Source: Candidatus Saccharimonadota bacterium
GTDB taxonomy: Bacteria; Patescibacteriota; Saccharimonadia; Saccharimonadales; Saccharimonadaceae
Direction: 5' to 3'
Length of the DNA: 32,000 nt
Assembly: GCA_001897305.1 (NCBI GenBank)
Contig: MKSO01000001.1
Span: 510,001-542,000, forward strand
Shown piece by piece: positions 6,628 to 26,577 of the stretch (position 1 is the stretch's first letter; each line of letters begins with the position of its first letter). Made by a program: the position numbers and the translations under genes. The notes beneath the pieces were generated by a model, which ran no database searches, had not been told where the DNA came from, and was given only the letters and a program-made list of their open reading frames with translations.

Positions 6628-7161
6628 TTACTTACCTGCCTTTCCTGCTTTTCGAAGAATAACTTCGTCAGCATACTTAATACCCTTACCCTTGTATGGT
6701 TCAGGCTTTTTAAGAGCACGAATTTCAGCAGCAGTTTGACCCACAGCTTGCTTGTCGATACCCTTAACAGTAATTTCCATCTTGTTTACTTCAAGTTGGA
6801 CACCATCGCGAGCTTTGTATTTCACTGGGTGCGAGAACCCAAGGGCCATAGTGATTTCTTGGCCACCACCTTCAACACGGAACCCAACACCGTTTACTTC
6901 CAGCTTCTTTTCAAAGCCAGTTGTAACACCGTTGACTGCGTTGTTAAGAAGGGCACGTTGCAAACCGTGCTGTGCTTTGGCAATGCGCTCGTCGTCCTTA
7001 CGGGTAACAATAGCGTTGCCGTCCTCTAGTGAGACAGTTACGTCAGAGAGATGCGGTACTACTAGTTGGCCTTTAGGACCAACAACTGTAATAGCATCAT
7101 CAGCGACCGTGATTGTCACGCCTGAGGGAATTTGAATTGGTAGTTTTCCGATTCGACTCAT
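6628..7161 (-). CDS. rplF: 50S ribosomal protein L6
   Basis: 177-aa ORF starting MSRIGKLPIQIPSGVTITV..., with ...GFSHPVKY... and ...KKPEPYKGKGIKY, typical of L6. Confidence 0.96.
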   Translation of the reverse strand: MSRIGKLPIQIPSGVTITVADDAITVVGPKGQLVVPHLSDVTVSLEDGNAIVTRKDDERIAKAQHGLQRALLNNAVNGVTTGFEKKLEVNGVGFRVEGGGQEITMALGFSHPVKYKARDGVQLEVNKMEITVKGIDKQAVGQTAAEIRALKKPEPYKGKGIKYADEVILRKAGKAGK

Positions 7162-7386
7162 GATCTACTTCCTTGTTTACCACGAGTGAAACGGACAAGA
7201 CGTTTCAGTGCTTCGGCTATATTACTCTACTACGATGCCATGCATTGGCTTTAGTATCATTAATAGCGCTAGCGCAAAATCACCTCTGATTTCACTCGCA
7301 TTAATTATCTGAATAATAGTAGCACATTAACGCCATATACACAAGATGTGGCACTCTTTTTAAAATGAGTTAACGAGACAATCTTA

Positions 7387-8670
7387 TCACTTTTCGTGAT
7401 CAGTTGCCTCCGTTAGTCTTTGTTCTATCGCCTTATTAACCAAACTTGAGACCGTGCTATTCATATTTTCAAGCCGCACTCTTTGCATAAAGCCTACAGG
7501 CCCGAGTTTCTTAAACATCTTACCAAAAGTTTCATCAGCAAACGAAGATGATACAATCGCAATCTTATCAAAGTCAACAACTACCGGAAGGCCAGTCTCA
7601 AGCATTAGATTTTCAATGTCATTTCTAATCCTGAAGCCCGATTGCCTAGTACCATAACCTGAAGCTTTCTCATCCAACCTATACATTAATCTCTCTCCTG
7701 TTTCATTAAGAGACGAGAGTACTCGATATGAATCAGGTCGATGTCCATTTAAAGCATTTTCAATATTAATTGGCTTCTGATAATTTATTTGAAAATCGAC
7801 AATTGTACCACCACCCTTTCGCGCATGACTGAGATAAGGCCCTGAATCTTTTGTAATTTGCCCATCATTACCAATATGAATACGCGCTCCACTACTTGTT
7901 ATAGTCATCTCTCCTGTTCCAGATTCTATAATCCTATGCAAACCCCATAAACCGTTTCCTTGATGTTCCGTCTTGCTCCTTGTAACCCCTTCTTTCATTG
8001 CAAGAGTAATGGCATCCATTGAATCGGATGGTTTATAAAAGTCCGATGTACTTAAAGAGTTATATATACCCTGACCTGCGTCCGCCACACAAAAAACGAC
8101 CTGCTTTTGTCCGCTGTGCAACTGGCCCATTACGTAACCTGAGTCGGAATCTGCGTGTTGTAAAACATTATCGACAACTTCATTAAGTGACCACTCCAGT
8201 GACACTAATGCATCCTTATTAGTGATTAACTCTCTTTCTCGAATAGCATCAATAAGCAGAGTAACAATACCAAACACATCCTCGGGACTTTCAAATTTCC
8301 AAACTTTGTTTAATGGATTATTACTATGCTCATTGAAACCAAAACTAATAGGCTCAATGAGACGCTTGTCTACAAATGAGTTAGGCGTCTCATGAAGCCT
8401 AAAAACAACTCCGGAATTAGTTCTTAGGTTGTCACAAAAAGCCGCTAACGGGACTGCTATATTTGCGTATACTGTTTCATTTTTTAGCTTACTGAAATCA
8501 AGGGTGATTTCTTGATAGCCCTCATGTCTAGCTTCTAGAACAGCACTAATAAAATGCCGTAGGGAAATCCGCTCTTTAAGTGAACGTATTATAATCACAC
8601 CGTCTCTACGTTCTATTGCAGAATCATTCAACTTATTCTGCAGTCGCTCTAGTATATTAGGACGTCCCAT
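7387..8670 (-). CDS. GHKL-type ATPase (RsbW/SpoIIAB-like kinase fold) with a C-terminal STAS-like domain and possibly an N-terminal STAS-like domain; 427 aa
   Basis: N-box LNEVVDNVLQHA (E164/N168), G1 box VADAGQGI (D197-x-G-x-G201) and G2 box GNGLWGL (G238-G243). The C-terminal 340-415 segment (VVVDFDKIAIVSSSFADETFGKMF) resembles the STAS-like family I recall as DUF4325. The N-terminal segment ITLDFSKLKNETVYANIAVPLAAFCDNL is also STAS-like. The gene is visibly AT-rich relative to its ribosomal neighbours. Confidence 0.6.
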   Translation of the reverse strand: MGRPNILERLQNKLNDSAIERRDGVIIIRSLKERISLRHFISAVLEARHEGYQEITLDFSKLKNETVYANIAVPLAAFCDNLRTNSGVVFRLHETPNSFVDKRLIEPISFGFNEHSNNPLNKVWKFESPEDVFGIVTLLIDAIRERELITNKDALVSLEWSLNEVVDNVLQHADSDSGYVMGQLHSGQKQVVFCVADAGQGIYNSLSTSDFYKPSDSMDAITLAMKEGVTRSKTEHQGNGLWGLHRIIESGTGEMTITSSGARIHIGNDGQITKDSGPYLSHARKGGGTIVDFQINYQKPINIENALNGHRPDSYRVLSSLNETGERLMYRLDEKASGYGTRQSGFRIRNDIENLMLETGLPVVVDFDKIAIVSSSFADETFGKMFKKLGPVGFMQRVRLENMNSTVSSLVNKAIEQRLTEATDHEK

Positions 8671-8702
8671 TTGCTAACTCTTTTGTTATTAAACTTTCTC
8701 TT

Positions 8703-8708
8703 ATTATA
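8703..8708 (-). promoter_or_regulatory. Candidate -10 box TATAAT for the 427-aa gene
   Basis: Perfect TATAAT on the minus strand, 32 nt upstream of the ATG at 8670 and downstream of the rpsH terminator. There is no clear -35 element. Confidence 0.4.
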
Positions 8709-8775
8709 CTAAGGTATCGTAAGCGCAGTGACAATAAAGCATCTCAAATTAACCCACTTCTACAAACTAGTTTTC

Positions 8776-8810
8776 TAAAAAAGAACCTCACATGAAGTGA
8801 GGTTCTTTTA
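8776..8810. terminator. Bidirectional-looking rho-independent terminator after rpsH
   Basis: AGAACCTCAC (8782-8791), loop ATGAA, GTGAGGTTCT (8797-8806). The hairpin is flanked by an A-run upstream and a T-run downstream, so the minus strand reads hairpin plus UUUUUU, about 20 nt after the rpsH stop. Confidence 0.8.
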
Positions 8811-8828
8811 TTATGCAAAGAATTTTCA

Positions 8829-9230
8829 TTAGTAAACGCTCAAAAGCAATTCACCACCAAGACGCTGCTTAGTAGCTTCTTGTCCAGTAACCACACCCTT
8901 CGATGTACTTACCAGAACGATACCACGGCCGCTCTTTACCTTAGGGATGTCGTTGGCACTTACGTACACGCGGCGTCCAGGTTTTGAAAGGCGCTTGATT
9001 TCGTTAATAGCGGCGTTTTCACCTGGCTTGTTAATAGTAACAACCAAGATGTCGCGAGGCTTTGCTGCTTCAACTTTTACGCCAGCGATGTAGCCAGCCT
9101 TCTTAAGTTCTTCAGCAACCACCTTCTTCAATTTGCTTGAAGGAACAGTGATTTCGTTCTTACCAACCATAACTGCATTACGGATGCGAGTCAGTAGGTC
9201 GGCGATTGGGTCTGTAGATTGTAGTGACAT
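8829..9230 (-). CDS. rpsH: 30S ribosomal protein S8
   Basis: 133-aa ORF starting MSLQSTDPIADLLTRIRNAVMVGKNEITVPSSKLK..., the classic S8 N-terminus. Confidence 0.96.
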   Translation of the reverse strand: MSLQSTDPIADLLTRIRNAVMVGKNEITVPSSKLKKVVAEELKKAGYIAGVKVEAAKPRDILVVTINKPGENAAINEIKRLSKPGRRVYVSANDIPKVKSGRGIVLVSTSKGVVTGQEATKQRLGGELLLSVY

Positions 9231-15684: not shown

Positions 15685-15704
15685 GAGTAATTACGGATAA
15701 GCCC

Positions 15705-15733
15705 TTGAATTTCATGCACATACGTTGCATACT
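15705..15733 (+). promoter_or_regulatory. Candidate promoter for the plus-strand small gene: TTGAAT-17 nt-CATACT
   Basis: The -35 element is at 15705-15710 and the -10 element at 15728-15733, about 40 nt upstream of the ATG at 15774. It is divergent from the rplC promoter. Confidence 0.35.
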
Positions 15734-15773
15734 GCTAGATAAGGAAAACCCCAACCAGTTTAAAGGAATAGTT

Positions 15774-16085
15774 ATGGCGACAACGAAAGCAGCAGCCACC
15801 AAGAAAACCCCCACCAAGAAAGCACCCGCTTCGGCTGCTTCGAAGAAAAAAAGTGTTACCACGAAAAAAGTAACTAAAAAAGCCGTGGCTCAGTCACCAG
15901 AAGTTCGTTCATTTAAGGTAGCCAAAAGTTCTCAAAAATTTACAGACTTCAAGCTTAGCCGCCAGACTATTTACTGGATTATCCTCATTGCCTTTATCAT
16001 TTTCGCCCAACTCTGGATCATCAAACTACAAGTTGACATTGGAAGTCTGCTTGACTCACAACAAACGCAAATTACTACCAACTGA
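15774..16085 (+). CDS. Small bitopic membrane protein, 103 aa (K/A/T-rich N-terminus, one TM helix)
   Basis: ATG at 15774, preceded by AAGGA about 7 nt upstream. The sequence is MATTKAAATKKTPTKKAPASAASKKKSVTTKK...TIYWIILIAFIIFAQLWIIKLQV... It is the only credible plus-strand gene in the window and ends at a bidirectional terminator. The ORF-track start at 15540 is an upstream extension through the rplC start. Confidence 0.6.
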   Translation: MATTKAAATKKTPTKKAPASAASKKKSVTTKKVTKKAVAQSPEVRSFKVAKSSQKFTDFKLSRQTIYWIILIAFIIFAQLWIIKLQVDIGSLLDSQQTQITTN

Positions 16086-16098
16086 GTATCTTGGAAAT

Positions 16099-16129
16099 AA
16101 AAAAAGCGAGCATAAAAGCTCGCTTTTTT
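16099..16129. terminator. Bidirectional rho-independent terminator shared by the plus-strand small gene and rpsJ
   Basis: AAAAAAA-GCGAGC-ATAAAA-GCTCGC-TTTTTT. The stem arms are at 16106-16111 and 16118-16123, lying between convergent stop codons at 16085 and 16142. Confidence 0.8.
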
Positions 16130-16141
16130 AGTACACACAAA

Positions 16142-16664: not shown

Positions 16665-17594
16665 TTAGTAGTAGTACCCTCCGCCAAGAATATCCCAGTA
16701 CTGTTCGAGGGTTTTTATGCCTCTCGCCTGCATATCTTTTGCAACCGCCGTACCGACATAGCGATAATGCCACTCTTCTGCCTTATAGCCTGTGATGTTT
16801 TCATAACCTGCATAGTAGCGCTGAATAAACCCGTAGTCGGCTGCGTTTGCCTGAAGCCATTGGTACTGAGAAGTTGCCCCAAAACAATCTAATACACATG
16901 AACCGGCAGCGACATCAAAAGCCAGGCCGGTCTGATGTTCACTATAGCCAGGGCGAGCACTATAGGTATCAGCCCCCTCTTTTCCACTTACAGACACCCA
17001 ATAATTGTACGTACTTACTTGGTCGCCATAGGATCGATAGCTGCTGGTTACAGAGAAGCCTTGGCCAGCGGCGGCGGCAGCAGCAAAGAGCTGGTTATAT
17101 GCAGAAATTGCCTTGGCGCTTAAGGTCGCTCCGTTGGAAGTCACAAGATCACCCGGCGCGTAACTTAATGGTTGAAGACAATGTTTTTTATTAACCAGCA
17201 CATCAATGTTCGCCGGGTTACTATGAGAGCTTGCCGTGTTACATGCCGATGAATTAATTGTTGATACGGTTGATTCATTAGCCGTTCGAGCTGCGTCGGC
17301 AGCTTCGTTAGCCGCTTTTTCTCTCGCTGCCTTCGCCTCTGCTCTAAGTTTAGCGTTAGCCACCAGCTGATCATTTGCCTTTTTTAGTAACTGCGAGGTA
17401 TTGGCATTAGCCTGACTTATAGATTGGTCAATATGTGCGTTATACCAGTTATTAAATACAAGGCTTGCAAGTAGCGGCAAAATAATAAGCGAAGCAATGA
17501 GCCAATAACGGCGCACGAAAGTGACGGGAGACTTCTTATTTTTTGTCGATTTCACTCTCTCTATAATAGTACTTTTTGGCTTTTGTCCAAACAA
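16665..17594 (-). CDS. Membrane-anchored D-alanyl-D-alanine carboxypeptidase, peptidase M15B (VanY-like)
   Basis: Contains SSYRSY, GYSEHQTGLAFDV and AEEWHYRYVG, the VanY/M15 zinc-peptidase motifs. There is an N-terminal TM helix (YWLIASLIILPLLASLVF) and an A/K/E-rich coiled segment. The start is uncertain: TTG at 17594 lies inside the tuf terminator, and the alternative is GTG at 17553-17555. Confidence 0.85.
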   Translation of the reverse strand: MFGQKPKSTIIERVKSTKNKKSPVTFVRRYWLIASLIILPLLASLVFNNWYNAHIDQSISQANANTSQLLKKANDQLVANAKLRAEAKAAREKAANEAADAARTANESTVSTINSSACNTASSHSNPANIDVLVNKKHCLQPLSYAPGDLVTSNGATLSAKAISAYNQLFAAAAAAGQGFSVTSSYRSYGDQVSTYNYWVSVSGKEGADTYSARPGYSEHQTGLAFDVAAGSCVLDCFGATSQYQWLQANAADYGFIQRYYAGYENITGYKAEEWHYRYVGTAVAKDMQARGIKTLEQYWDILGGGYYY

Positions 17595-18920: not shown

Positions 18921-19307
18921 TTAGGACGAAGACTGCATATCCACCTGCCAAATATCGGGCATCGTACTGTATTTAATAACCATCTTTTGATGCAACGCTT
19001 TTAGTTTTTCAGAATCGGTCTGGTTGAACTCAAACTGAGATGCTGCATTTCGCAATTTTTCGAGGTCGAACTCTTTGATGCAATCTCGAGCCCTACGAAT
19101 AATTTCCTGCATAAAAATATCGAGTGTTTCGTAGGCAAGCCAGGTATAGACTGCATCTAGACCTACGCCATGCACAATCTTACACCGCACCTGGTACCAA
19201 TATTCTATAAGTGATTGCCAATCATCGACGTTTTGTATTTCACCATTCCAGTGATTTGTTTCGTTTTTTAGGGGCTGCTTTTGCGTGACATCAACCAGAC
19301 GCTTCAT
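18921..19307 (-). CDS. Hypothetical protein, 128 aa, with a HEPN-like Rx4H motif (WYQVRCKIVHG; R41, H46)
   Basis: The ATG overlaps the stop of the upstream ORF (ATGA at 19304-19307). The R codon is at 19185-19187 and the H codon at 19170-19172. The predicted protein is helical. The family call rests on the motif only. Confidence 0.55.
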   Translation of the reverse strand: MKRLVDVTQKQPLKNETNHWNGEIQNVDDWQSLIEYWYQVRCKIVHGVGLDAVYTWLAYETLDIFMQEIIRRARDCIKEFDLEKLRNAASQFEFNQTDSEKLKALHQKMVIKYSTMPDIWQVDMQSSS

Positions 19308-19555
19308 GTAGACTTAAGTGGTGTCATGCTATTGCCAATTCGATAATCCTCCCAGATACCTACTCTTGCTTTTAGTAGCGTAATGGCCTTGCGGTCATTT
19401 GTCGTAACCGTCACTCGACGATACCACGCATTATATGCTGCATATAATAACATGAAGCGTTGCTCGTAATCTATCATTGATTTTTCATACAACTCACATA
19501 CCTTTTCAAATCCAAAAGGAACATTATAGCTGCCATTGTTCGATATGTCCGTCAT
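19304..19555 (-). CDS. Hypothetical protein, 83 aa (88 aa if started at 19570); possible N-terminal half of a split HEPN-like domain
   Basis: The ATG at 19553-19555 overlaps the RadC-like stop (ATGA). The segment RFMLLYAAYNAWYRRVTVTTNDRKAITLLKA resembles the first helices of some HEPN families, from memory and unverified. Confidence 0.5.
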   Translation of the reverse strand: MTDISNNGSYNVPFGFEKVCELYEKSMIDYEQRFMLLYAAYNAWYRRVTVTTNDRKAITLLKARVGIWEDYRIGNSMTPLKST

Positions 19556-20187
19556 AGGACGCTTCCCCATTCTTGACAGGAGGGTCCGTAAACCGCATAT
19601 ATCCCTTTGAGCTTTATGCCTAAAAGTCGTGAGGTTTCGTACATAGAACCCATAAGCCCTATTTCCTGTGGATTTGGCCCTTTAGTGCTATTTTTCGTCA
19701 CGATAAATATATACACGTTGCGAGCATGAACAGTAAGAGCATCGGTAAAAATCCGCTTAGCAATAAGGCTGTAGTGTTCATTTTTCACTAGGGTATACGA
19801 CTTATGATCGATTTCTTTCATAAAGCCGTCTAGCCAATAGCTCACGACTTGATGACCACGTATATTCGCCAGTTCACCAACGTATTTACTAACGAGTTCT
19901 GTCGACTCACGATCACCAGAATTCTCCATCACCATGCGCCGCCCAAGTTCGACCGCACCAAGCAACTGGCAGGCCTTAGCATCACCAAGTCCAACAATAC
20001 CAACAAGCGAGCTATACTGAAAGTTCCCTGCCAAAAGAAGACTTTCGACTCGTTTGGATAATTTTGCCGCCGAAACCCGAGCACTCCCAGAGCCAATAAT
20101 AAGTTGAATGAGCTCAACCAAGCTTAAGTAACGCACCCCTTGAGCACGCAGCTTTTCTCTTGGTTGTTCGTATAAAACTTGCCCCAT
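19552..20187 (-). CDS. RadC-like protein with a degenerate (probably inactive) JAB/JAMM motif, 211 aa
   Basis: The N-terminus PREKLRAQGVRYLSLVELIQLIIGSGSARVSAAKLSKRV...GLGDAKACQLLGAVELGRR matches the RadC helix-hairpin-helix region. In the C-terminal JAB region the expected HNHPSG...PS..D...DH is replaced by VTKNSTKGPNPQE...KG. Confidence 0.7.
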   Translation of the reverse strand: MGQVLYEQPREKLRAQGVRYLSLVELIQLIIGSGSARVSAAKLSKRVESLLLAGNFQYSSLVGIVGLGDAKACQLLGAVELGRRMVMENSGDRESTELVSKYVGELANIRGHQVVSYWLDGFMKEIDHKSYTLVKNEHYSLIAKRIFTDALTVHARNVYIFIVTKNSTKGPNPQEIGLMGSMYETSRLLGIKLKGIYAVYGPSCQEWGSVL

Positions 20188-20239: not shown

Positions 20240-22333
20240 TTATTTATTTGTACGCTTTGCAATAATCTCTTGCATCACGTTTGGTGGTACTTCTTCGTAC
20301 TGGGCAAGTTCCATGGTTGAAGCGGCACGACCTTGGCTCATTGAACGAATGTCGTTGGTGTACCCAAAGAGGTTTGCAAGTGGTACGTAGGCACGAACCA
20401 ACTTAGCACCACCAGGAATGTCTTCCATGGCGTCAATACGGCCACGACGAGAGTTAAGGTCGCCGATGATGTCACCCATGAAATCTTCTGGAGTTGAAAC
20501 TTCAACTTTCATGACAGGCTCAAGGATAACTGGGCGCGCTTGTGGAATACCGGCCTTTACAGCCAATACACCTGCCAAGTTAAAGGCGAGTTCGCTTGAG
20601 TCGACGTCGTGGTAGCTACCATCGTAGAGGGTTGCTTTTACACCAATCATTGGGTAACCAGCGATCACACCGCCCTCGAGCGTATCTTTAATACCCTTCT
20701 GAACTGGTGCGCGGTATTCTTGCGGCACCACACCACCCTTAATTTCGTCAACGAATTCGAAGCCTTCACCAGATTCGGTCGGTTCGAAACGAATCCAAAC
20801 ATCACCATACTGTCCACGACCACCAGATTGCTTAGCATGCTTACCCTGAGCTTCAGCGGTACCACGAATAGTTTCACGGAAGGCCACTTGCGGTTCACCA
20901 ATGTTGGCTTCAACGTTAAATTCACGCTTCATACGGTCAACGAGGATGTCGAGGTGAAGCTCACCCATACCTGACATAATGGTTTGGCCGGTTTCTTCGT
21001 CGGTGTGAATACGGAAGGTTGGGTCTTCTTCGGCTAGACGCTGCAGGGCAATACCCATCTTTTCTTGGTCGGCTTTTGTCTTAGGCTCAACCGCAATCGA
21101 TACAGGAGGTTCTGGGAATTCAATTGACTCAAGTACGATTGGGTGTGCTGGGTCAGACAGAGTATGACCTGTGAAAGTCGTCTTAAGGCCAACAACGGCG
21201 GCGATGTCACCAGCGCCAACGTGGTCGATGTCTTCACGCTTGTCGGCGTGCATACGAACAATACGGCCAATACGCTCTTTTTCACCCGTTGTGGTGTTAA
21301 GCACATAGCTACCAGCTGTAAGCTTACCGCTATATACACGAACAAAGATTAGACGGCCAACGAATGGGTCGCTAGCGATCTTAAAGGCTAGCGCAGAAAG
21401 AGGCTCGCTGTCAGCAGGTTGGCGTTCAACGACATCACCAGTCTTAGGGTTGGTACCCTGAATCGCCTCAACATCAAGCGGCGAAGGCAAGAAGTCGTTT
21501 ACAAGGTCAAGCACCTTTTCAACGATTACACCACGGCCATCACCACCAGTCACGAGGAAGAAGTCACCGGCAAGGACACGCTTGCGAAGCGCACGCTTAA
21601 GCTCTTCAAGAGTGATAGACTCTTCACCTTCTTCAAGGAAACGTTCGAAGAGTTCATCTTCTGCTTCAACTGCTGCTTCAACTAATAGACTGCGAGCATT
21701 CTTGGCTTTTTCAAGCATGTCGGCTGGGATTTCACCTTGAACCAAAGCCTTGTCAGTATAGTCACTGTAGGTGTAGGCTTTCATGTCGAGAAGGTCAACA
21801 AGACCGTTGATGTCCTTTTCAAAGCCAATAGGAAGGTGCACAGGAAGTGCGTGCTTCGAAAGACGGTTGTGAATACTATCGAGAGACTTGTAGAAATCAC
21901 CACCAATTTGGTTAATCTTGTTTACGAAACAAATACGAGGCACGCCGTACTTGTTCGCCTGGCGCCATACGGTCTCGGTCTGAGCTTCAACACCCATCTT
22001 ACCGTCGAACACAGTGACCGCACCGTCGAGGACACGAAGTGAACGCTCAACCTCAGCGGTAAAGTCGATGTGACCTGGCGTGTCAATGATGTTGATCTTG
22101 TGACCCTTCCAGAAACACGTAACAGCAGCAGAGGTAATCGTAATACCACGCTCTTTCTCTTGCGCCATCCAGTCAGTGGTTGCACCGTCGCCGTCGCCAC
22201 GAACTTCACCAATCTTGTGGTTAATACCCGTACGGTACAAAATACCTTCAGTAGTAGTGGTCTTACCCGCGTCAATGTGGGCAATAATACCAATGTTTCG
22301 ATAGTCCTTAAGTGGGACGTTTGCTTGAGCCAT
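20240..22333 (-). CDS. fusA: Elongation factor G
   Basis: 697-aa ORF with ...[21 protein letters not shown]... and ...[23 protein letters not shown]..., showing full five-domain EF-G architecture. Confidence 0.98.
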
Positions 22334-22386: not shown

Positions 22387-22415
22387 ATTATAACAGATAC
22401 TAAGGCCTATGACTA
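22387..22415 (-). promoter_or_regulatory. Candidate promoter for fusA: TAGTCA-17 nt-TATAAT, overlapping the 3' end of the 333-aa ORF
   Basis: On the minus strand the -10 element is at 22387-22392 and the -35 element at 22410-22415. The ORF stop is at 22400-22402. Confidence 0.45.
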
Positions 22416-23401
22416 GTTACTGTATAAAAAGCTTTTCGCAACGATACTATTGATTTGATTGATGATAGTGGTACCGTATATGTCATTGATTCCTGTCGAT
22501 GATCCATAGGGTATACTCGTGACTTAACAACCAATTGGTAGCTGGAAGAAATACTGTTAGTATCTACCATTCTTGGAATCAAGTTGATGTTCGAGAGGTG
22601 GGTCATGGCGCGCATATTAGTGACTTCATAGCATATATTATGGCCCATCTTTTTATCTTTTCGAATAATCGGCCCCTCTATAACCGCTTCGTAAGGCATG
22701 TCCTTGTCAAGAACTATGAGGCCACGTAGATATTCTTTGACACAATTCCTTGATAGAGGGTCACTGAGATCAATCCACTGTTCTATATCCAGGTCAGCAA
22801 CCGCTTCTAATGCTTCTGTTTCGGACATTACACCCAAAAGTCGCCTATCAATTTCATCTACAAACAAAGGATATTGCAAGGTCACCCAATTAAAGGCCCT
22901 TTCTTTTGATGCTTTATCTGTATCAACAATAACGTCAGTAAGCTTACCAGTAGCTCTTACGTACTGCTCGCCCTCAGGCGGATTTGGTACACAGTCTGCG
23001 GGAACAACAAAGTCATGTAATAGTTCAGAATAAGATCGGTCATCTTTAATAGCCGACGTAGTGACTGCATTAAAACCGTTTGAGATAACCGTCGTATCCC
23101 AGAGTATTGCTTGACTTCTCTGTCCTTTACCATCTCTGTACTCAATCAACCCTCGAACCTTAAGCTTTTCTCCTAACCACTCCCCCCACTTGCGGTCAAA
23201 TTCCGCTACAATCTCCTGCCTGTGCTGTAAGCTGTTGGGTATAGTTGTAAGTAGTTCATTAGCCGAGTAGGCTTCGGAGAGAACTCTATCCATAGCAGGT
23301 TCGCGTAATAGACCAATTTGCTCCTCAAGGGCGGCGAGCGATCCATCGCTAACCTCAAGATTATTCGCATTGTTGTCGAAAGACTCATTTTCTGCTGACA
23401 T
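22400..23401 (-). CDS. Hypothetical protein, 333 aa (cassette ORF4), no recognisable domain
   Basis: ATG preceded by AAGAGGA 7 nt upstream and 18 nt after the ORF3 stop. The N-terminus is acidic and the rest appears mixed alpha/beta. The DNA is AT-rich. Confidence 0.7.
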   Translation of the reverse strand: MSAENESFDNNANNLEVSDGSLAALEEQIGLLREPAMDRVLSEAYSANELLTTIPNSLQHRQEIVAEFDRKWGEWLGEKLKVRGLIEYRDGKGQRSQAILWDTTVISNGFNAVTTSAIKDDRSYSELLHDFVVPADCVPNPPEGEQYVRATGKLTDVIVDTDKASKERAFNWVTLQYPLFVDEIDRRLLGVMSETEALEAVADLDIEQWIDLSDPLSRNCVKEYLRGLIVLDKDMPYEAVIEGPIIRKDKKMGHNICYEVTNMRAMTHLSNINLIPRMVDTNSISSSYQLVVKSRVYPMDHRQESMTYTVPLSSIKSIVSLRKAFYTVTSHRP

Positions 23402-23419
23402 AACTATCCTCTTTGACTA

Positions 23420-24109
23420 TCAATGGTCCAAAAGTTCGGCGAATTGAGCGTCCCAATCAATGTCATGTGCTGATTGCGCAAGCGCCTGCATTACTGCCCG
23501 CTCCTGCTTTGCGAAAAGTATTTCATGCTGATTGAAGGCTAGTTTCGCAACGGCTCCCGTGCCCGTTTCAAACATACGCTGCTTAGTAACGTCTTTGACA
23601 AACCGTTCACTCCAATGCTCAATAATATCGTTTGTCTGAGGACCCATTAGAACGAGCCCTCGGTGTCCCATATTTAAAATAGCTTCACTAATTTGATGAT
23701 GCGTATGTGCTTCATCATCAGTGTTATTTTCAATCCCACCTAGCTCAACATTGGAATATAACCGCAACGGCGAGAGTGCAGAACCGTGCGCTTCATATAT
23801 CAAAAGAGCACCAGCAGTCGCCCCAAGGTAAAAAGCCTCTTTAGACCTACGGTCTGAATCAATGAATTCACCGGTTGAGCGATCCATTGGCTCTACAAAG
23901 GCCGCTAACCGCTCCGTTTCTTGAAGAAAATTCTTAAAAGAATGTTTGTTTTGAAGAAATCGTGAATAAGCTACATCTATTGTAGTCTCGGATAAAACTG
24001 CATCTATCTTTTGAGCTGCAGTAAAATATTCGTCGTGAGTAGGGAGTTCTGGTATTGTCGGTTCGGGCATAGCAATCATTATACCCCGCACATCACGTGA
24101 CTCAAGCAT
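23420..24109 (-). CDS. Hypothetical protein, 229 aa by the ORF track (cassette ORF3), a paralogue of ORF1; the true start may be the ATG at 24068-24070 (216 aa)
   Basis: Collinear similarity to the 240-aa protein. From M14 the N-terminus MPEPTIPELPTHDEY parallels MLPTPEQLPTPNDY of ORF1. Confidence 0.7.
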   Translation of the reverse strand: MLESRDVRGIMIAMPEPTIPELPTHDEYFTAAQKIDAVLSETTIDVAYSRFLQNKHSFKNFLQETERLAAFVEPMDRSTGEFIDSDRRSKEAFYLGATAGALLIYEAHGSALSPLRLYSNVELGGIENNTDDEAHTHHQISEAILNMGHRGLVLMGPQTNDIIEHWSERFVKDVTKQRMFETGTGAVAKLAFNQHEILFAKQERAVMQALAQSAHDIDWDAQFAELLDH

Positions 24110-24126
24110 AAGCTAGGTAGTAGCAA

Positions 24127-25242
24127 CTAGACTCGTGTTATAGGCGTTCCAAACTCTGGAAAGTGCTTCACAACCTCATCATTTCGATGGAACCGCATCA
24201 AGCCACTAGAAGCTATATCATCAAACCTCACAAGGCCTTGTTGATAAAGACGGAGTGTTTCACGAAATTGAGTTGCAATATTTTCAATAGCCAATTCCTC
24301 ATCCACACTGGCCCCTCCTCTAACAAAGCGGCTAAATGCATCTACGGTACCGGACGGATCGTCTTCGTTGATTGTTAAGCGCACCCCTCCTGGAACAACG
24401 AGCGCATTATAGCGACGTTTTGCCCTTTTTGTGAGGCGTGATTTTATTTCTATCGGAATGACTTTACGAATATTCCCCCAATGTTGGTTGACTATCATAA
24501 TGTCATGGGTTTGTCTGGCATTGTAAAGCCCTGACCCCCCTCTTACCGTAGATAGTAGTGGCACGTACCGTGGGTCATCAATAACTAGAGCGGCCATAAG
24601 TGCTATTGCTTCAAACAATAGTCCTTTGTGCTGCGCCTGCATTGCCCAATCATCTTGTTCAATTGCCGCTTGATATTCGATGTTAATACTGTCAGTAATA
24701 TGCGCTATGTCCGCCAATACCGATGCCATCACTCCATTACTAACATTCCCTACGATGATCGACTTTACTAGTGGCATTGTCGCTAAATTTAATGCAGTCC
24801 GATGGCCACCGTATTCATTGCGATCACCTACTTCAAATGTTAAATTTCTTCCTGCGTAAAGTTCGCTCACAAGTTGTCTTTGCCAAATTTGTTCACCCCT
24901 CATCGCTATAGCTAATCGATCAACAGCTGACGTGTCTGCCGCTAATAATGAAGCCTCTACATAAGCTGATCCTGCCGCTCTAAGATATTCTGGATACGTT
25001 TCTGATTCAAGTTTTTGACCATATTCAACCAGAATGTCCGGGCTTACAGCATCAGTCATTGATTTACTCAGTGTCATATATTCACGATAATCTTCATTAA
25101 GAAGATATCGATAATACCCTCCCGGCTGATCATATTCGCTCAAGCAATTTGGGTCAAAAGACTCGGGGGCGTCAAAATATAATGCAGATTTGAGGGCGTC
25201 ACTTCCAGGGAGGGGTGCATGAAAAACCCTCTCCCGTGGCAT
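24127..25242 (-). CDS. Hypothetical protein, 371 aa (cassette ORF2), with a PD-(D/E)xK nuclease-like core in the C-terminal half
   Basis: E211 (GLLFEAIALMAAL), D247 (QTHDIMIVN) and E265-I-K267 (VIPIEIKSRLTKRAKRRY) show the spacing typical of the restriction-endonuclease fold. The codons were verified at 24610-24612, 24502-24504 and 24442-24450. AAAGGA is the SD. The N-terminal roughly 200 aa are unassigned. Confidence 0.65.
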   Translation of the reverse strand: MPRERVFHAPLPGSDALKSALYFDAPESFDPNCLSEYDQPGGYYRYLLNEDYREYMTLSKSMTDAVSPDILVEYGQKLESETYPEYLRAAGSAYVEASLLAADTSAVDRLAIAMRGEQIWQRQLVSELYAGRNLTFEVGDRNEYGGHRTALNLATMPLVKSIIVGNVSNGVMASVLADIAHITDSINIEYQAAIEQDDWAMQAQHKGLLFEAIALMAALVIDDPRYVPLLSTVRGGSGLYNARQTHDIMIVNQHWGNIRKVIPIEIKSRLTKRAKRRYNALVVPGGVRLTINEDDPSGTVDAFSRFVRGGASVDEELAIENIATQFRETLRLYQQGLVRFDDIASSGLMRFHRNDEVVKHFPEFGTPITRV

Positions 25243-25346
25243 ATTAGTCCTTTTTCAACTTTCTGAATATATTGATTTTTGCTCCCATTTGCTTATGGTT
25301 ATACACCACACTCAAATATTTGGAAAGACTTTTTTGTTTTAAAAAT

Positions 25347-26069
25347 TTACGCATCACCCTGAAATTCACGCCAATGCCTATCCCAGTCACTTTCGGTATC
25401 CGTAGTCATATTATTTAAATCATTCTTATCAACAATTTCGTTAAAATCACCGTGGAGTCGCCGCTGGACGGCTTCAAACAAACTCTGACGAGAAGCGAAA
25501 TCGGCATCTATAATAATACCTACGCCTACTTGCACCATTCCTTCGGCTTCTGAATTGCTCGTATGGAGCAGTATTTCTTCCCACAGTTCAATGATTTCTT
25601 TACTTGTCGAAAGCGCACCCATCCCCCATCGTCCTGCAATATGAAGTTGGTCGAACAGTACAGCACGGTCCCCAACCTCATTGGCCCGATACTCAGCCGC
25701 GCGAAGCACAACATCAACGCCCTTGTTAATACGGGTTATATGCTCTGGCGTGGAATCAGGTGACGTTCGATGCATTGTATCCGTCAATAAAGAGCCTACT
25801 AGCATACCGTCTTGTAGAGCCTTCGCAGTTGCTTGTGCATCTTCAGTATGTGACCACGCTGGATTTGCATCACCCATACTCATCATCACAGACAAGTTAT
25901 TGACTCGTTGCAAAAAGTCTCTTCCCCTTCTGCTACGAAAAAGACCATTGCCGGAGAATCGGTCAATGGTCTTTCGTGGTCCACCCTCGCTCGCAAATAG
26001 TCGATCAAGCGCAATTGTAGCTCGACGATAATCATTAGGAGTAGGAAGTTGTTCCGGTGTCGGAAGCAT
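25347..26069 (-). CDS. Hypothetical protein, 240 aa (cassette ORF1), a paralogue of ORF3
   Basis: It starts 28 nt after the rpsG stop with no intervening hairpin. The protein is mostly helical. I recognise no family. Confidence 0.7.
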   Translation of the reverse strand: MLPTPEQLPTPNDYRRATIALDRLFASEGGPRKTIDRFSGNGLFRSRRGRDFLQRVNNLSVMMSMGDANPAWSHTEDAQATAKALQDGMLVGSLLTDTMHRTSPDSTPEHITRINKGVDVVLRAAEYRANEVGDRAVLFDQLHIAGRWGMGALSTSKEIIELWEEILLHTSNSEAEGMVQVGVGIIIDADFASRQSLFEAVQRRLHGDFNEIVDKNDLNNMTTDTESDWDRHWREFQGDA

Positions 26070-26097: not shown

Positions 26098-26577
26098 CTA
26101 ACCGCGTGCAAAGTGTGCGAAAGCACGGTTTGCTTCGGCCATCTTGTGGGTGTCTTCTTTTTTCTTGAAGGCAGCACCAGTTTCGTTGTAGGCATCAACG
26201 ATCTCAAGGGCGAGTCGTTGGCTGTAAGGAATACCCTTACGTGCGCGTGCGCTTTGTACAAGCCATGAAAATGCGTAGTGCAATTGGCGGTGGCCAGCTA
26301 CTGGGAATGGAATTTGGTAGTTTGCTCCACCAACACGACGGCTTTTTACTTCGAAGTTTGGAGAAACGTTCTTGAGGGCTTTTTCAAAGACTTCAAGTGG
26401 GTTTTCGCTATCAAGCTTTTTAGCTGCAGCTTCGAGTGCGTCGTAGACGGCACGCTCTGCAACAAGCTTTTTACCATTAAGCATTGACTTGTTGATTAGG
26501 CGCTGTACCATTACGCTTTGGTATTTGCGGTCTGGGTTAGGGATTCGCTGTAGGCTAACAGTTTTCTTACGTGGCAT
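26098..26577 (-). CDS. rpsG: 30S ribosomal protein S7
   Basis: 159-aa ORF with MPRKKTVSLQRIPNPDRKYQSVMVQRLINKSMLNGKKLVAERAVYDAL..., typical of S7. Confidence 0.96.
   Translation of the reverse strand: MPRKKTVSLQRIPNPDRKYQSVMVQRLINKSMLNGKKLVAERAVYDALEAAAKKLDSENPLEVFEKALKNVSPNFEVKSRRVGGANYQIPFPVAGHRQLHYAFSWLVQSARARKGIPYSQRLALEIVDAYNETGAAFKKKEDTHKMAEANRAFAHFARG

What the first reader, a model, noticed from the sequence alone, without database searches (positions are those of the whole stretch)
7387..8670. AT-rich single-gene insertion splitting rpsH from rplF: a one-polypeptide STAS-GHKL kinase-STAS protein
rpsH and rplF are adjacent in the spc operon of essentially all bacteria (established). 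Here they are 1.67 kb apart, separated by a strong terminator after rpsH, a TATAAT box and a 427-aa ORF that is visibly more AT-rich than its neighbours.

The protein has the N, G1 and G2 boxes of RsbW/SpoIIAB-type GHKL serine kinases and anti-sigma factors (EVVDN, DAGQG, GNGLWG). It also has a C-terminal domain resembling STAS-like antagonist domains (VVVDFDKIAIVSSSFADETFGKMF). The first ~100 residues also show a STAS-like pattern (ITLDFSKLKN...).

Partner-switching kinase and antagonist modules are normally separate proteins. Fusing them in one chain, and placing the gene inside the ribosomal operon, is unusual. It may act as a self-contained switch sensing translation state, or as a stand-alone conflict-system component.
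Basis: partly seen in the sequence, partly recalled or inferred. Interest (0 to 1): 0.65.

Follow-up and report, generated by a model that had tools for sequence, protein, structure and literature searches.

The report
Fused sensor kinase–STAS gene in ribosomal operon
A horizontally acquired gene sits between two ribosomal protein genes of a Saccharibacteria (TM7) bacterium; it joins in one chain a kinase and its target domain that a phage-defence system described in 2026 (VapK and VapS) keeps as two proteins, it belongs to a large uncharacterised family, and what it acts on is unknown.

Summary
A 427-aa ORF (7387-8670, minus strand; GC 0.40 against 0.45-0.51 for its neighbours) lies in a 1,667-nt gap between rpsH and rplF. 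A strong rpsH terminator and a promoter-like site of its own lie upstream of it.

The proposed STAS-GHKL-STAS architecture holds. DUF4325 scores E 1e-13, the N, G1 and G2 boxes are invariant in 58 homologues, and the AlphaFold model is confident (pLDDT 89).

The closest characterised relatives are VapK (STAS-GHKL kinase) and VapS (STAS antitoxin) of the ssDNA-activated VapKSC defence system, and the related CapK/CapS pair (EMBO J 2026). The protein aligns end to end with VapK followed by VapS. Its invariant Ser375 aligns with the phospho-acceptor VapS Ser48. It has no VapC toxin and no DNA-binding domain.

The fusion is not rare: there are 612 clusters at 50% identity. Relatives occur inside type I restriction-modification operons, as extra genes in phage genomes and in defence-like islands, and no partner gene is conserved.

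The ribosomal location reflects a clade-specific insertion hot spot between the rpsH terminator and a conserved rplF promoter and structured leader. I found no link to translation.

Verdict: a new, effector-less fused variant of a known kind; its output is unknown.

The parts
8829..9230 (-). rpsH (ribosomal protein S8), the gene upstream of the insertion
   Evidence: The ORF is, Pfam Ribosomal_S8 is recorded, and it is 77-95% identical to S8 of 80 Saccharibacteria species representatives.
8773..8809 (-). Intrinsic terminator of the rpsH transcription unit (13-bp stem, 5-nt loop, U tract)
   Evidence: Folded: -18.8 kcal/mol, z -4.15. One search lists it as inverted repeat I3, 100% complementary. 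A similar hairpin follows S8 in relatives such as L023.
8703..8734 (-). Promoter-like site of the inserted gene (TTGTCA, 17 nt, TAGTAT, overlapping TATAAT)
   Evidence: Found and read directly. It is a consensus match only and has not been tested.
7387..8670 (-). The 427-aa fused kinase-substrate ('K-S') protein: N-terminal STAS-like domain, GHKL kinase domain, C-terminal DUF4325 STAS-like domain
8287..8622 (-). N-terminal STAS-like domain (about aa 17-128), homologous to the sensor STAS domain of VapK; position 68 is aromatic (Tyr here)
   Evidence: The AlphaFold topology is strand-strand-helix-strand-helix-strand-helix. Foldseek hits include SLC26 STAS domains, RsfB, RsbS and MlaB at E 0.03-0.3 with probabilities up to 0.96. 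hhalign matches it to VapK residues 11-100. Position 68 is aromatic in 57 of 58 homologues.
7771..8286 (-). GHKL (Bergerat-fold) ATP-binding kinase domain (about aa 129-300), with N box E164/N168, G1 box D197-x-G-x-G201 and G2 box G238-N-G-x-x-G243
   Evidence: Pfam HATPase_c (E 2e-5) and HATPase_c_2 (E 4e-5) both fall just below their curated cut-offs. The motif residues are invariant in 58 of 58 homologues. Foldseek finds ParE, Hsp90 and SpoIIAB (1tid_C, TM 0.69 on the target, probability 1.00).
7390..7695 (-). C-terminal VapS-like STAS domain (DUF4325, about aa 326-427), with the invariant GTGTR (338-342) and SSSFADE (374-380) motifs
   Evidence: Pfam PF14213 scores E 1.1e-13, above its cut-off. 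The best sequence match of the family profile in the whole PDB is VapS 9z7o, E 1.8e-5. hhalign to VapS gives probability 89% and E 2.6e-6.
7546..7548 (-). Codon of Ser375, the predicted phospho-acceptor
   Evidence: It is invariant in 58 of 58 homologues. It aligns with VapS Ser48, which is residue 66 of the tagged PDB chain. VapS S48 and CapS S54 are the sites described in PMC13373217.
7316..7344 (-). Conserved promoter of the rplF unit (-35 TTGTGT 7344-7339, 17 nt, extended -10 TGC-TACTAT 7324-7316); it marks the downstream edge of the insertion
   Evidence: The alignment of 23 junctions has the consensus TTGCnT, 17 nt, TGCTACTAT. BLASTN conservation is shown.
7162..7315 (-). Conserved, apparently structured 5' leader of rplF (long-range helix 7299-7292 with 7189-7182, two internal hairpins)
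   Evidence: It has no Rfam match.
6628..7161 (-). rplF (ribosomal protein L6), the gene downstream of the insertion

Best explanation
The gene encodes a single-chain version of the kinase-plus-STAS-substrate modules recently described as CapK/CapS and VapK/VapS.

Shown here:
- Residues 22-295 are collinear with the whole of VapK, which consists of a sensor STAS domain and a SpoIIAB-like GHKL serine kinase domain.
- Residues 343-425 are collinear with the STAS domain of VapS.
- The domain order matches the vapK-vapS gene order.
- The ATP-binding and catalytic motifs and the serine aligned with the VapS phospho-acceptor are invariant across the family.

Inferred:
- By analogy, the N-terminal STAS and GHKL domains sense a nucleic-acid danger signal (single-stranded DNA for CapK).
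- The kinase then phosphorylates Ser375 of the fused STAS domain, within the same chain or across a dimer.
- That phosphorylation changes what the STAS domain is bound to.
- The downstream output is unknown. The protein has no toxin, no DNA-binding domain and no conserved neighbour, so it must act on a partner encoded elsewhere (host or phage) or through its own oligomeric state.

The gene behaves as a mobile, stand-alone conflict or stress-response gene. It was acquired horizontally and is fixed in this Saccharibacteria species. It landed in a clade-specific intergenic hot spot between the rpsH terminator and the rplF promoter/leader, where it does not disrupt ribosomal gene expression.

The overall confidence of 0.55 applies to the phospho-switch and defence/stress reading. 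My confidence in the domain architecture alone is about 0.9.
For: Architecture:
- Pfam DUF4325 scores E 1e-13, and the two HATPase families fall near their thresholds.
- E164, N168, D197, G199, G201, G238-G243, S375/S376 and others are invariant in 58 homologues.
- The AlphaFold2 model has pLDDT 89 and pTM 0.87, which implies a defined arrangement of the domains.
- SpoIIAB and other GHKL structures are the Foldseek hits for the whole model, and STAS domains dominate the hits for the N-terminal domain.

Relationship to VapK and VapS:
- hhalign of the family profile against VapK gives probability 91% and E 9e-7 over 255 columns, covering VapK 11-288 of 302.
- Against VapS it gives probability 89% and E 3e-6.
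- VapS is the best sequence hit of the family profile in the whole PDB, E 1.8e-5.
- S375 aligns with VapS S48.

Conflict-system context:
- The GHKL and STAS part matches the N-terminal region of a PADLOC DISARM DrmA profile, E 3e-28.
- Homologues lie inside type I R-M operons in two different arrangements, with overlapping reading frames.
- One lies antisense between the tape-measure and Dit genes of a siphophage, and others sit beside GmrSD-like and ResIII genes.
- Others sit beside KwaB, zeta-toxin and NYN genes, or beside a Rep gene and a resolvase.
- Split K and S gene pairs without a toxin occur on an Alicyclobacillus plasmid and in the lysogeny module of Marinitoga phage MPV1.
- One family member carries a C-terminal wHTH and RHH, which amounts to CapK and CapS in one chain. 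Others carry an N-terminal HTH-like IF2_N domain, as CapK carries an HTH.

Horizontal origin and hot spot:
- GC is 0.40 against 0.47 for the window.
- Homologues at 75% and 62% identity lie at unrelated loci.
- The gene is absent from 80 related species representatives.
- It is present in all 24 long contigs read from the same species.
Against: - No biochemical data exist for any member of this fused family. Kinase activity, the ssDNA trigger and Ser375 phosphorylation are all inferred by homology at about 19-22% identity to VapK and VapS.
- The HATPase Pfam scores are slightly below the curated cut-offs.
- The best Foldseek hits for the whole model are ATPases (ParE, Hsp90), not kinases.
- The aromatic residue that binds ssDNA in VapK (F54) aligns two positions away from the conserved aromatic residue of this family.
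- No effector was found. A defence role therefore rests only on context, and many of the 99 contexts examined are housekeeping genes such as aminoacyl-tRNA synthetase genes and kdtA.
- PADLOC has no dedicated model for the family.
- I could not inspect the model coordinates, so whether Ser375 sits at the ATP site is untested.
Confidence: 0.55

Rival explanations
1. The protein is a GHKL ATPase rather than a protein kinase, comparable to MORC, Hsp90 or topoisomerase ATPase modules. The STAS-like domains would then serve as ligand- or nucleotide-binding or oligomerisation modules, and no phosphotransfer to Ser375 would occur.
For: The top Foldseek hits for the whole model are ParE, Grp94, Hsp90 and TRAP1. 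The Pfam HATPase scores are below the gathering thresholds. STAS domains elsewhere bind nucleotides or anions (established knowledge of SLC26 and YtvA-type STAS domains).
Against: SpoIIAB is also hit, at probability 1.00 and TM 0.69 on the target. The whole kinase half aligns with VapK. The serine equivalent to the phospho-acceptor of VapS, CapS and SpoIIAA is invariant, together with the flanking SSSFADE motif. Split K and S pairs mirror kinase-substrate operons.
Confidence: 0.15
2. It is a classical partner-switching module, an anti-sigma factor kinase fused to its antagonist, that controls a host sigma factor as part of normal Saccharibacteria physiology.
For: The fold resembles SpoIIAB, and the N-terminal domain resembles the RsfB, RsbS and anti-sigma antagonist STAS domains. 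One split homologue lies next to a gene annotated 'sigma factor-like HTH DNA-binding protein' on an Alicyclobacillus plasmid.
Against: By sequence the family profile is closest to VapS and VapK, not to SpoIIAA or SpoIIAB. The family is distributed sporadically across phyla, phages and plasmids. None of the 80 related Saccharibacteria species representatives has it. No sigma factor or PP2C phosphatase gene is adjacent. The low GC points to recent acquisition.
Confidence: 0.1
3. It is a sensor of translation or ribosome state that is functionally tied to the spc operon.
For: It lies between rpsH and rplF. No terminator follows it, so its transcript may read into the rplF leader. Some distant homologues lie next to aminoacyl-tRNA synthetase genes, and some carry an N-terminal IF2_N domain.
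Against: The nearest homologues (75% and 62% identity) lie beside dnaX/dnaB or beside a Rep gene and a resolvase. The junction holds unrelated cargo in other species, including an esterase, an RCC1-repeat protein, UvrD, Fic, thymidylate kinase and a HerA-like ATPase. The gene has its own promoter-like site and is insulated upstream by a strong terminator. rplF has its own conserved promoter and leader. Small CPR (candidate phyla radiation) genomes make housekeeping neighbours likely by chance. IF2_N is a small HTH-like fold.
Confidence: 0.05
4. It is a counter-defence gene of mobile-element or phage origin: a decoy substrate and kinase that interferes with host CapKS- or VapKSC-type signalling.
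For: Full-length homologues occur in 17 viral contigs, in GenBank phages and in PHROG families 3364 and 5816. One is an extra gene in a phage tail module.
Against: Prophage-borne defence genes occupy the same kinds of position. Homologues embedded in host type I R-M operons and fused to DrmA argue for a role on the defence side. Here the gene is chromosomal and fixed in a species with no prophage genes next to it.
Confidence: 0.08

Closest known systems
VapK + VapS of the VapKSC toxin-antitoxin/anti-phage system (Chambers et al., EMBO J 2026, PMC13373217; VapS-VapC structure PDB 9Z7O)
   Same: The domain content and order are the same: STAS, GHKL kinase, then a STAS substrate. The profile alignments cover almost the whole of VapK (11-288 of 302) and the STAS domain of VapS (17-100 of 116). 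The catalytic Asn and the G boxes are conserved, as is the serine equivalent to VapS S48. A GTR motif near the N-terminus of the S domain is shared. Both are associated with defence islands.
   Different: K and S are fused here in one polypeptide. There is no VapC PIN toxin in the locus or in any of the 99 contexts examined. The alignment ends at about VapS residue 100, so the C-terminal VapC-blocking helix (94-116) is not recognisably present. Identity is only about 19-22%. The ssDNA-binding Phe54 of VapK does not align exactly with the conserved aromatic residue of this family.
CapK + CapS (HTH-STAS-GHKL kinase and STAS-wHTH repressor controlling CBASS, Bub and Thoeris operons; same paper)
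   Same: The kinase-STAS-serine logic is the same. Some members of the window protein's family carry an N-terminal HTH-like IF2_N domain, as CapK carries an HTH. One member (P0237) carries a wHTH and RHH after the STAS domain, as CapS does.
   Different: The window protein has neither an HTH nor a wHTH, and no immune operon lies downstream. The next gene is rplF, which has its own promoter.
SpoIIAB/SpoIIAA and RsbW/RsbV partner-switching pairs
   Same: It has a GHKL serine-kinase fold (1tid_C, TM 0.69 on the target) and a STAS fold, with a conserved serine at the start of the second helix.
   Different: There is no sigma factor or PP2C phosphatase partner. It has an extra N-terminal STAS sensor domain. 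The window protein has no hit to Pfam STAS or STAS_2. It is mobile and sporadically distributed.
Pfam DUF4325 / NCBI 'STAS-like domain-containing protein' entries; PADLOC DrmA profile PDLC02567; PHROGs 3364 and 5816
   Same: The window protein is a member of this uncharacterised family by sequence.
   Different: These are annotation labels with no tested function. The DrmA profile matches only over its N-terminal positions 114-396 of 1750; the window protein has no helicase or DUF1998 part.

Membership tests
CapK/VapK-type STAS-GHKL sensor kinases | An N-terminal STAS domain directly precedes the GHKL domain | tested here: met
   The AlphaFold topology is strand-strand-helix-strand-helix-strand-helix. 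Most of the strongest Foldseek hits for the isolated domain are STAS domains (SLC26A7, RsfB, RsbS, MlaB), although the E-values are only 0.03-0.3. hhalign covers the VapK STAS region. A family member, P0227, gives a weak STAS_2 hit on this domain.
CapK/VapK-type STAS-GHKL sensor kinases | A GHKL ATP-binding site with the catalytic Asn (CapK N218) and the G1 and G2 boxes | tested here: met
   E164, N168, D197, G199, G201 and G238-G243 are invariant in 58 of 58 homologues. The Pfam HATPase families score E 2e-5 and 4e-5, just under their cut-offs.
CapK/VapK-type STAS-GHKL sensor kinases | A conserved aromatic residue in the STAS loop that stacks on ssDNA (CapK W68, VapK F54) | tested here: inconclusive
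   Position 68 is F, Y or W in 57 of 58 homologues. In the hhalign alignment, however, VapK F54 pairs with position 66, two residues upstream.
CapK/VapK-type STAS-GHKL sensor kinases | Kinase activity that is switched on by ssDNA | not testable with these tools
   This needs biochemistry or a complex model with ssDNA.
CapK/VapK-type STAS-GHKL sensor kinases | The gene is encoded with a cognate STAS substrate and a regulated effector or operon (VapC, or a downstream immune operon) | tested here: not met
   The substrate domain is present, fused in the same chain. No PIN gene and no immune operon are present, and no partner is conserved across 99 loci. The downstream gene is rplF.
CapS/VapS (DUF4325) STAS substrates | A match to the DUF4325 STAS-like profile | tested here: met
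   PF14213 scores E 1.1e-13 and 51 bits against a cut-off of 23. The family profile matches VapS 9z7o at E 1.8e-5.
CapS/VapS (DUF4325) STAS substrates | An absolutely conserved Ser or Thr at the start of the second helix, which is the phospho-acceptor | tested here: met
   S375 is invariant and aligns with VapS S48. Phosphorylation itself was not tested.
CapS/VapS (DUF4325) STAS substrates | An output module after the STAS domain (wHTH in CapS, toxin-blocking C-terminal helix in VapS) | tested here: not met
   There is no HTH hit. The alignment to VapS ends at about residue 100 of 116. Only a conserved terminal helix with Q417 and R418 remains.
SpoIIAB/RsbW-type anti-sigma partner switching | An operon with a sigma factor, a separate STAS antagonist and a PP2C phosphatase | tested here: not met
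   The neighbours are ribosomal protein genes. The window protein has no hit to Pfam STAS or STAS_2.
DISARM DrmA | A helicase core and a DUF1998 domain | tested here: not met
   The PADLOC match covers only positions 114-396 of a 1750-position profile, and the protein is only 427 aa long.
Two-component sensor histidine kinases | A DHp/HisKA dimerisation domain with the phospho-acceptor His | tested here: not met
   There is no HisKA hit. The NCBIfam hits to NarX and PrsK score E about 0.1 and cover the ATP-binding region only.

The most novel reading that the evidence does not exclude
The fused K-S protein, together with the toxin-less split K and S pairs, is a complete single-gene danger sensor whose output is intrinsic. 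For example, phosphorylation of Ser375 could free the GHKL or STAS surface to capture an essential host or phage factor such as RNA polymerase, a sigma factor or a replication protein. That would make it a previously unrecognised, widespread single-protein defence system that also works in minimal CPR genomes.
Probability: 0.2. Interest if true: 0.7.

Novelty: new variant of a known kind. Interest (0 to 1): 0.45.

Why it matters
CapK/CapS and VapK/VapS showed that a GHKL kinase and a STAS substrate can form an ssDNA-triggered switch in bacterial immunity. In both published cases the output is obvious: a repressor or a toxin.

This family holds at least 612 clusters at 50% identity, from Cyanobacteria to CPR bacteria and phages. 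It carries the same switch as one chain with no visible output. Working out what it controls would show whether the switch can be a defence system on its own or plugs into partners encoded elsewhere. The fusion is also independent, Rosetta-stone-type evidence that K and S interact.

Separately, the locus shows that the otherwise rigid spc ribosomal operon of one Saccharibacteria clade has been split into two transcription units. The gap between them acts as a landing pad for accessory genes and is guarded by an apparently new structured leader RNA before rplF.

Tried and rejected
- A literature search for 'VapS' alone returned only unrelated VAP and VAPS papers. 'STAS-like' combined with 'phage' gave nothing useful. 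The MtvS1/MtvS2 preprint concerns YgfB-family proteins and is irrelevant.
- The three papers that mention DUF4325 only note it as a neighbour of PIN.4 VapC genes or as a prophage ORF.
- NCBIfam gave no meaningful hit.
- Rfam at gathering thresholds found nothing in the window.
- I searched for target-site duplications or terminal inverted repeats around the insertion and found only short matches of the kind expected by chance, so no transposon-like mechanism is evident.
- The hairpin just after the ORF is not a terminator (z -0.58). It overlaps the -35 element of the rplF promoter.
- Foldseek with the whole model is dominated by GHKL ATPases and does not resolve the STAS domains. I therefore modelled the N-terminal domain alone.
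- A profile comparison of the N-terminal against the C-terminal STAS-like domain gave no significant similarity: probability 4%, with only the shared LDF strand aligned. The two domains are not a recent duplication.
- A clustering search for a conserved partner gene among 99 loci found none that is universal.
- I considered a polymorphic insertion within the species and rejected it: all 24 long contigs with identical S8 or L6 carry the gene.
Full report
**1. The observation**

The window carries the str, S10, spc and alpha ribosomal gene clusters on the minus strand.

- A 427-aa ORF lies at 7387-8670 on the minus strand, between rpsH (8829-9230) and rplF (6628-7161). The two ribosomal genes are 1,667 nt apart.
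- The ORF has GC 0.396 and GC3 0.313. The neighbouring ribosomal protein genes have GC 0.45-0.51, and the window as a whole has 0.467.
- rpsH is followed by a perfect 13-bp hairpin that runs into a U tract (-18.8 kcal/mol, z -4.15).
- A promoter-like TTGTCA-17-TAGTAT, overlapping TATAAT, precedes the ORF.
- No terminator follows the ORF.

**2. What the protein is**

Sequence and structure evidence:
- Pfam finds the STAS-like DUF4325 domain at residues 345-407 (E 1e-13). It also finds two HATPase families at 151-293, just below their curated thresholds.
- In an alignment of 58 homologues at 36-85% identity, several sets of residues are invariant. They are the GHKL N box (E164, N168), the G1 box (D197, G199, G201), the G2 box (G238-N-G-x-x-G243), a GTGTR motif (338-342), SSSFADE (S375, S376, D379, E380), K384, and Q417/R418.
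- AlphaFold2 with that alignment gives a confident model (pLDDT 89, pTM 0.87) with three domains.
- Foldseek with the whole model hits GHKL domains, including the anti-sigma kinase SpoIIAB (1tid_C, probability 1.00, TM 0.69 on the target).
- The N-terminal 129 residues were modelled alone (pLDDT 86). They have the strand-strand-helix-strand-helix-strand-helix order of a STAS domain.
- Their best Foldseek hits are mostly STAS domains: SLC26A7 and SLC26A11, RsfB, RsbS, anti-sigma antagonists and MlaB. The E-values are weak (0.03-0.3), but probabilities reach 0.96.
- The two STAS-like domains are not detectably related to each other by sequence.

The STAS-GHKL-STAS reading is therefore right.

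**3. The closest characterised relatives**

A weak PDB hit to 'Escherichia VapS' led to Chambers et al., EMBO J 2026 (PMC13373217). That paper describes two systems:
- CapK is an HTH-STAS-GHKL kinase activated by single-stranded DNA. The ssDNA binds between its STAS and GHKL domains. CapK phosphorylates Ser54 of the STAS-wHTH repressor CapS.
- In VapKSC, VapK (STAS-GHKL) is proposed to phosphorylate Ser48 of the STAS antitoxin VapS, which releases the PIN toxin VapC.

I took the VapK and VapS sequences from the paper's supplementary model file and compared them with the family.
- Profile against VapK: probability 91%, E 9e-7, window residues 22-295 against VapK 11-288 of 302.
- Profile against VapS: probability 89%, E 3e-6, window residues 343-425 against VapS 17-100.
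- VapS is the top sequence hit of the family profile in the whole PDB, E 1.8e-5.
- The invariant Ser375 aligns with VapS Ser48.
- Position 68, in the loop that carries the ssDNA-stacking aromatic residue of CapK and VapK, is aromatic in 57 of 58 homologues. The alignment, however, places it two residues from VapK Phe54.

The protein is thus VapK followed by VapS, fused in gene order, without VapC and without the wHTH of CapS. The paper does not mention such fusions or DUF4325.

**4. The family and its contexts**

Size and labelling:
- The word-indexed search found 549 clusters at 90% identity.
- The exhaustive profile search found 612 clusters at 50% identity with E <= 1e-30. Nearly all are 400-430 aa and match the profile from end to end.
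- Sources name them 'STAS-like domain-containing protein' or 'hypothetical'. They come from Cyanobacteria, Anaerolineales, Bacteroidia, Firmicutes and Saccharimonadales.

Close relatives of the window protein lie at other loci:
- The 75%-identical protein lies beside dnaX and dnaB.
- The 62%-identical protein lies beside a Rep gene and a resolvase.
- Another lies in an island with KwaB, zeta-toxin and NYN genes.

Among 99 loci examined, no neighbour is universal. Recurrent arrangements are:
- hsdM, K-S, hsdS;
- hsdM, hsdS, K-S, hsdR; both arrangements have overlapping reading frames;
- insertion next to aminoacyl-tRNA synthetase genes.

In viral contigs the gene sits antisense between the tape-measure and Dit genes of a siphophage, or next to GmrSD-like, ResIII and M78-peptidase genes.

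Other variants:
- A PADLOC DrmA profile contains the GHKL and STAS part at its N-terminus.
- Split K and S pairs without a toxin occur on Alicyclobacillus plasmid pAACI02 and in the lysogeny module of Marinitoga phage MPV1.
- Longer family members add an N-terminal HTH-like IF2_N domain, or a C-terminal wHTH and RHH.

Taken together, this is the pattern of a mobile defence or stress module that can stand alone or be attached to different outputs.

**5. Why it is in the ribosomal operon**

I fetched the S8 loci of 80 related Saccharibacteria species representatives (S8 77-95% identical) and measured the S8-L6 distance.
- Of the 67 loci in which L6 was found downstream of S8, 32 have the canonical gap of 14-50 nt.
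- Most of the other 35 have gaps of about 120-3,200 nt. In several further loci whose fetched sequence ran the full 3.5 kb downstream, L6 was not found there at all.
- None of the 80 carries a homologue of this gene.

The larger gaps hold unrelated cargo:
- an esterase-like membrane protein;
- an RCC1-repeat protein;
- a HerA/mad8-like ATPase;
- a UvrD helicase;
- HD, MazG-like and Fic proteins;
- a DUF3800 / PDC-M04A protein;
- a DEAD-box helicase;
- thymidylate kinase;
- LytR;
- an ArsR regulator with an FMN reductase.

The last 165 nt or so before rplF are conserved among relatives with an expanded junction. The conserved region contains a clear promoter (TTGCnT, 17 nt, TGCTACTAT) and a leader.

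In this clade the spc operon is therefore already split into two transcription units at the rpsH-rplF junction, and the spacer serves as a landing site. In the window the insertion runs from just after the rpsH terminator (about 8775) to just before the -35 element of the rplF promoter (about 7345). I found no flanking repeats.

Within the species the gene appears fixed: all 24 long contigs with identical S8 or L6 carry it.

I found no evidence of a functional link to translation.

**6. Mechanism**

Shown: the architecture, the motif conservation, the homology to VapK and VapS, and the horizontal origin.

Inferred:
- The N-terminal STAS and GHKL domains sense ssDNA or a related signal.
- Ser375 is phosphorylated within the chain or across a dimer.
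- The interactions of the STAS domain then change.

Unknown: the output. Alternatives are listed among the rival explanations: a pure ATPase, an anti-sigma partner switch, a translation sensor, and a counter-defence decoy. I could not check whether the STAS domain docks on the ATP site, because the model coordinates are not exposed.

**7. Novelty and score**

The kind of system (a GHKL kinase with a STAS substrate switch in immunity) has been known since 2026. The sequences are already in databases as uncharacterised proteins. What is new is the recognition that a large family carries the K and S parts as one chain without an effector.

I rate it a new variant of a known kind, with interest 0.45.

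The side observations may be of independent interest. They are the hot spot in the spc operon and a candidate new rplF leader RNA. The leader has a long-range helix kept in 17 of 17 sequences and an internal hairpin whose stem differs in almost every species.

Noticed in passing
L011-L090 (S8 loci of related Saccharibacteria); window 7162-8828: The rpsH-rplF junction is a variable-cargo hot spot in this clade. Of the 67 species representatives in which both genes were found, 32 have a 14-50 nt gap. Most of the others have gaps of about 120-3,200 nt holding unrelated genes: an esterase-like protein, an RCC1-repeat protein, a HerA/mad8-like ATPase, UvrD, HD, MazG-like and Fic proteins, a DUF3800/PDC-M04A protein, a DEAD-box helicase, thymidylate kinase, LytR, and ArsR with an FMN reductase. 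In several further loci L6 is not within 3.5 kb.
   Followed up: yes
window 7162-7344 (minus strand): A conserved promoter (-35 at 7344-7339, extended -10 at 7324-7316) and an apparently structured 5' leader lie upstream of rplF, shared with 18 relatives. The leader has a long-range helix, GCGAGTGA (7299-7292) with TCACTCGT (7189-7182), kept in 17 of 17 sequences. It also has a GAAATC/GATTTT hairpin with two compensatory changes, and a second hairpin whose stem sequence differs in nearly every species. There is no Rfam match. This is a candidate new ribosomal-protein leader RNA.
   Followed up: partly
window 22400-26069 (minus strand): Four consecutive ORFs (240, 371, 229 and 333 aa) with no Pfam hit lie between rpsG (26098-26577) and fusA (20240-22333). 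They form a 3.7-kb block of unknown function that splits the normally contiguous str operon.
   Followed up: no
window 15685-16141, ORF 15774-16085 (+): An AT-rich spacer (GC about 0.41) lies between rpsJ and rplC. It holds a 103-aa ORF on the opposite strand with no Pfam hit, and may be another small insertion in the S10 operon.
   Followed up: no
window 16665-17594 and 18921-20187 (minus strand): A VanY D-Ala-D-Ala carboxypeptidase gene lies between tuf and rpsJ. A RadC-like (UPF0758_N) gene and a 128-aa ORF lie between fusA and tuf. The whole ribosomal super-operon of this organism is interrupted repeatedly.
   Followed up: no
L162, L163, L172; L167, L168, L171; L155: Homologues of the 427-aa protein are embedded in type I restriction-modification operons in two different arrangements, hsdM-KS-hsdS and hsdM-hsdS-KS-hsdR. 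The reading frames overlap by 3 nt or 46 nt.
   Followed up: partly
L100 7962-9182, L101 2438-3658: A homologue lies antisense between the tape-measure gene and the distal tail (Dit) gene of a siphophage. It looks like an accessory gene inserted into a conserved structural operon, which echoes the ribosomal-operon insertion here.
   Followed up: partly
P0159, P0173, P0226, P0227, P0219; P0237: There are longer variants of the family. Five members have an N-terminal IF2_N (HTH-like) domain ahead of the STAS-GHKL-DUF4325 core. One member has a C-terminal winged HTH and a ribbon-helix-helix domain, which amounts to CapK and CapS fused in one chain.
   Followed up: partly
L188 540-1748 (Alicyclobacillus plasmid pAACI02); L189 3911-5264 (Marinitoga phage MPV1): Split kinase (297-321 aa) and STAS-like (102-123 aa) gene pairs occur with no PIN toxin. 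One lies next to a gene annotated 'sigma factor-like HTH' and IS elements. The other lies in a phage lysogeny module, downstream of the repressor and DNA methyltransferase genes and just upstream of the integrase gene.
   Followed up: partly
L143, L144, L149, L150, L153; L010, L110-L112: In two sub-lineages the homologue lies directly next to class II aminoacyl-tRNA synthetase genes. One arrangement is kdtA-KS-hisS. In the other the homologue overlaps the end of a tRNA-synt_2b/HGTP_anticodon gene by 22 nt. This probably reflects small genomes, but I did not test it for enrichment.
   Followed up: no
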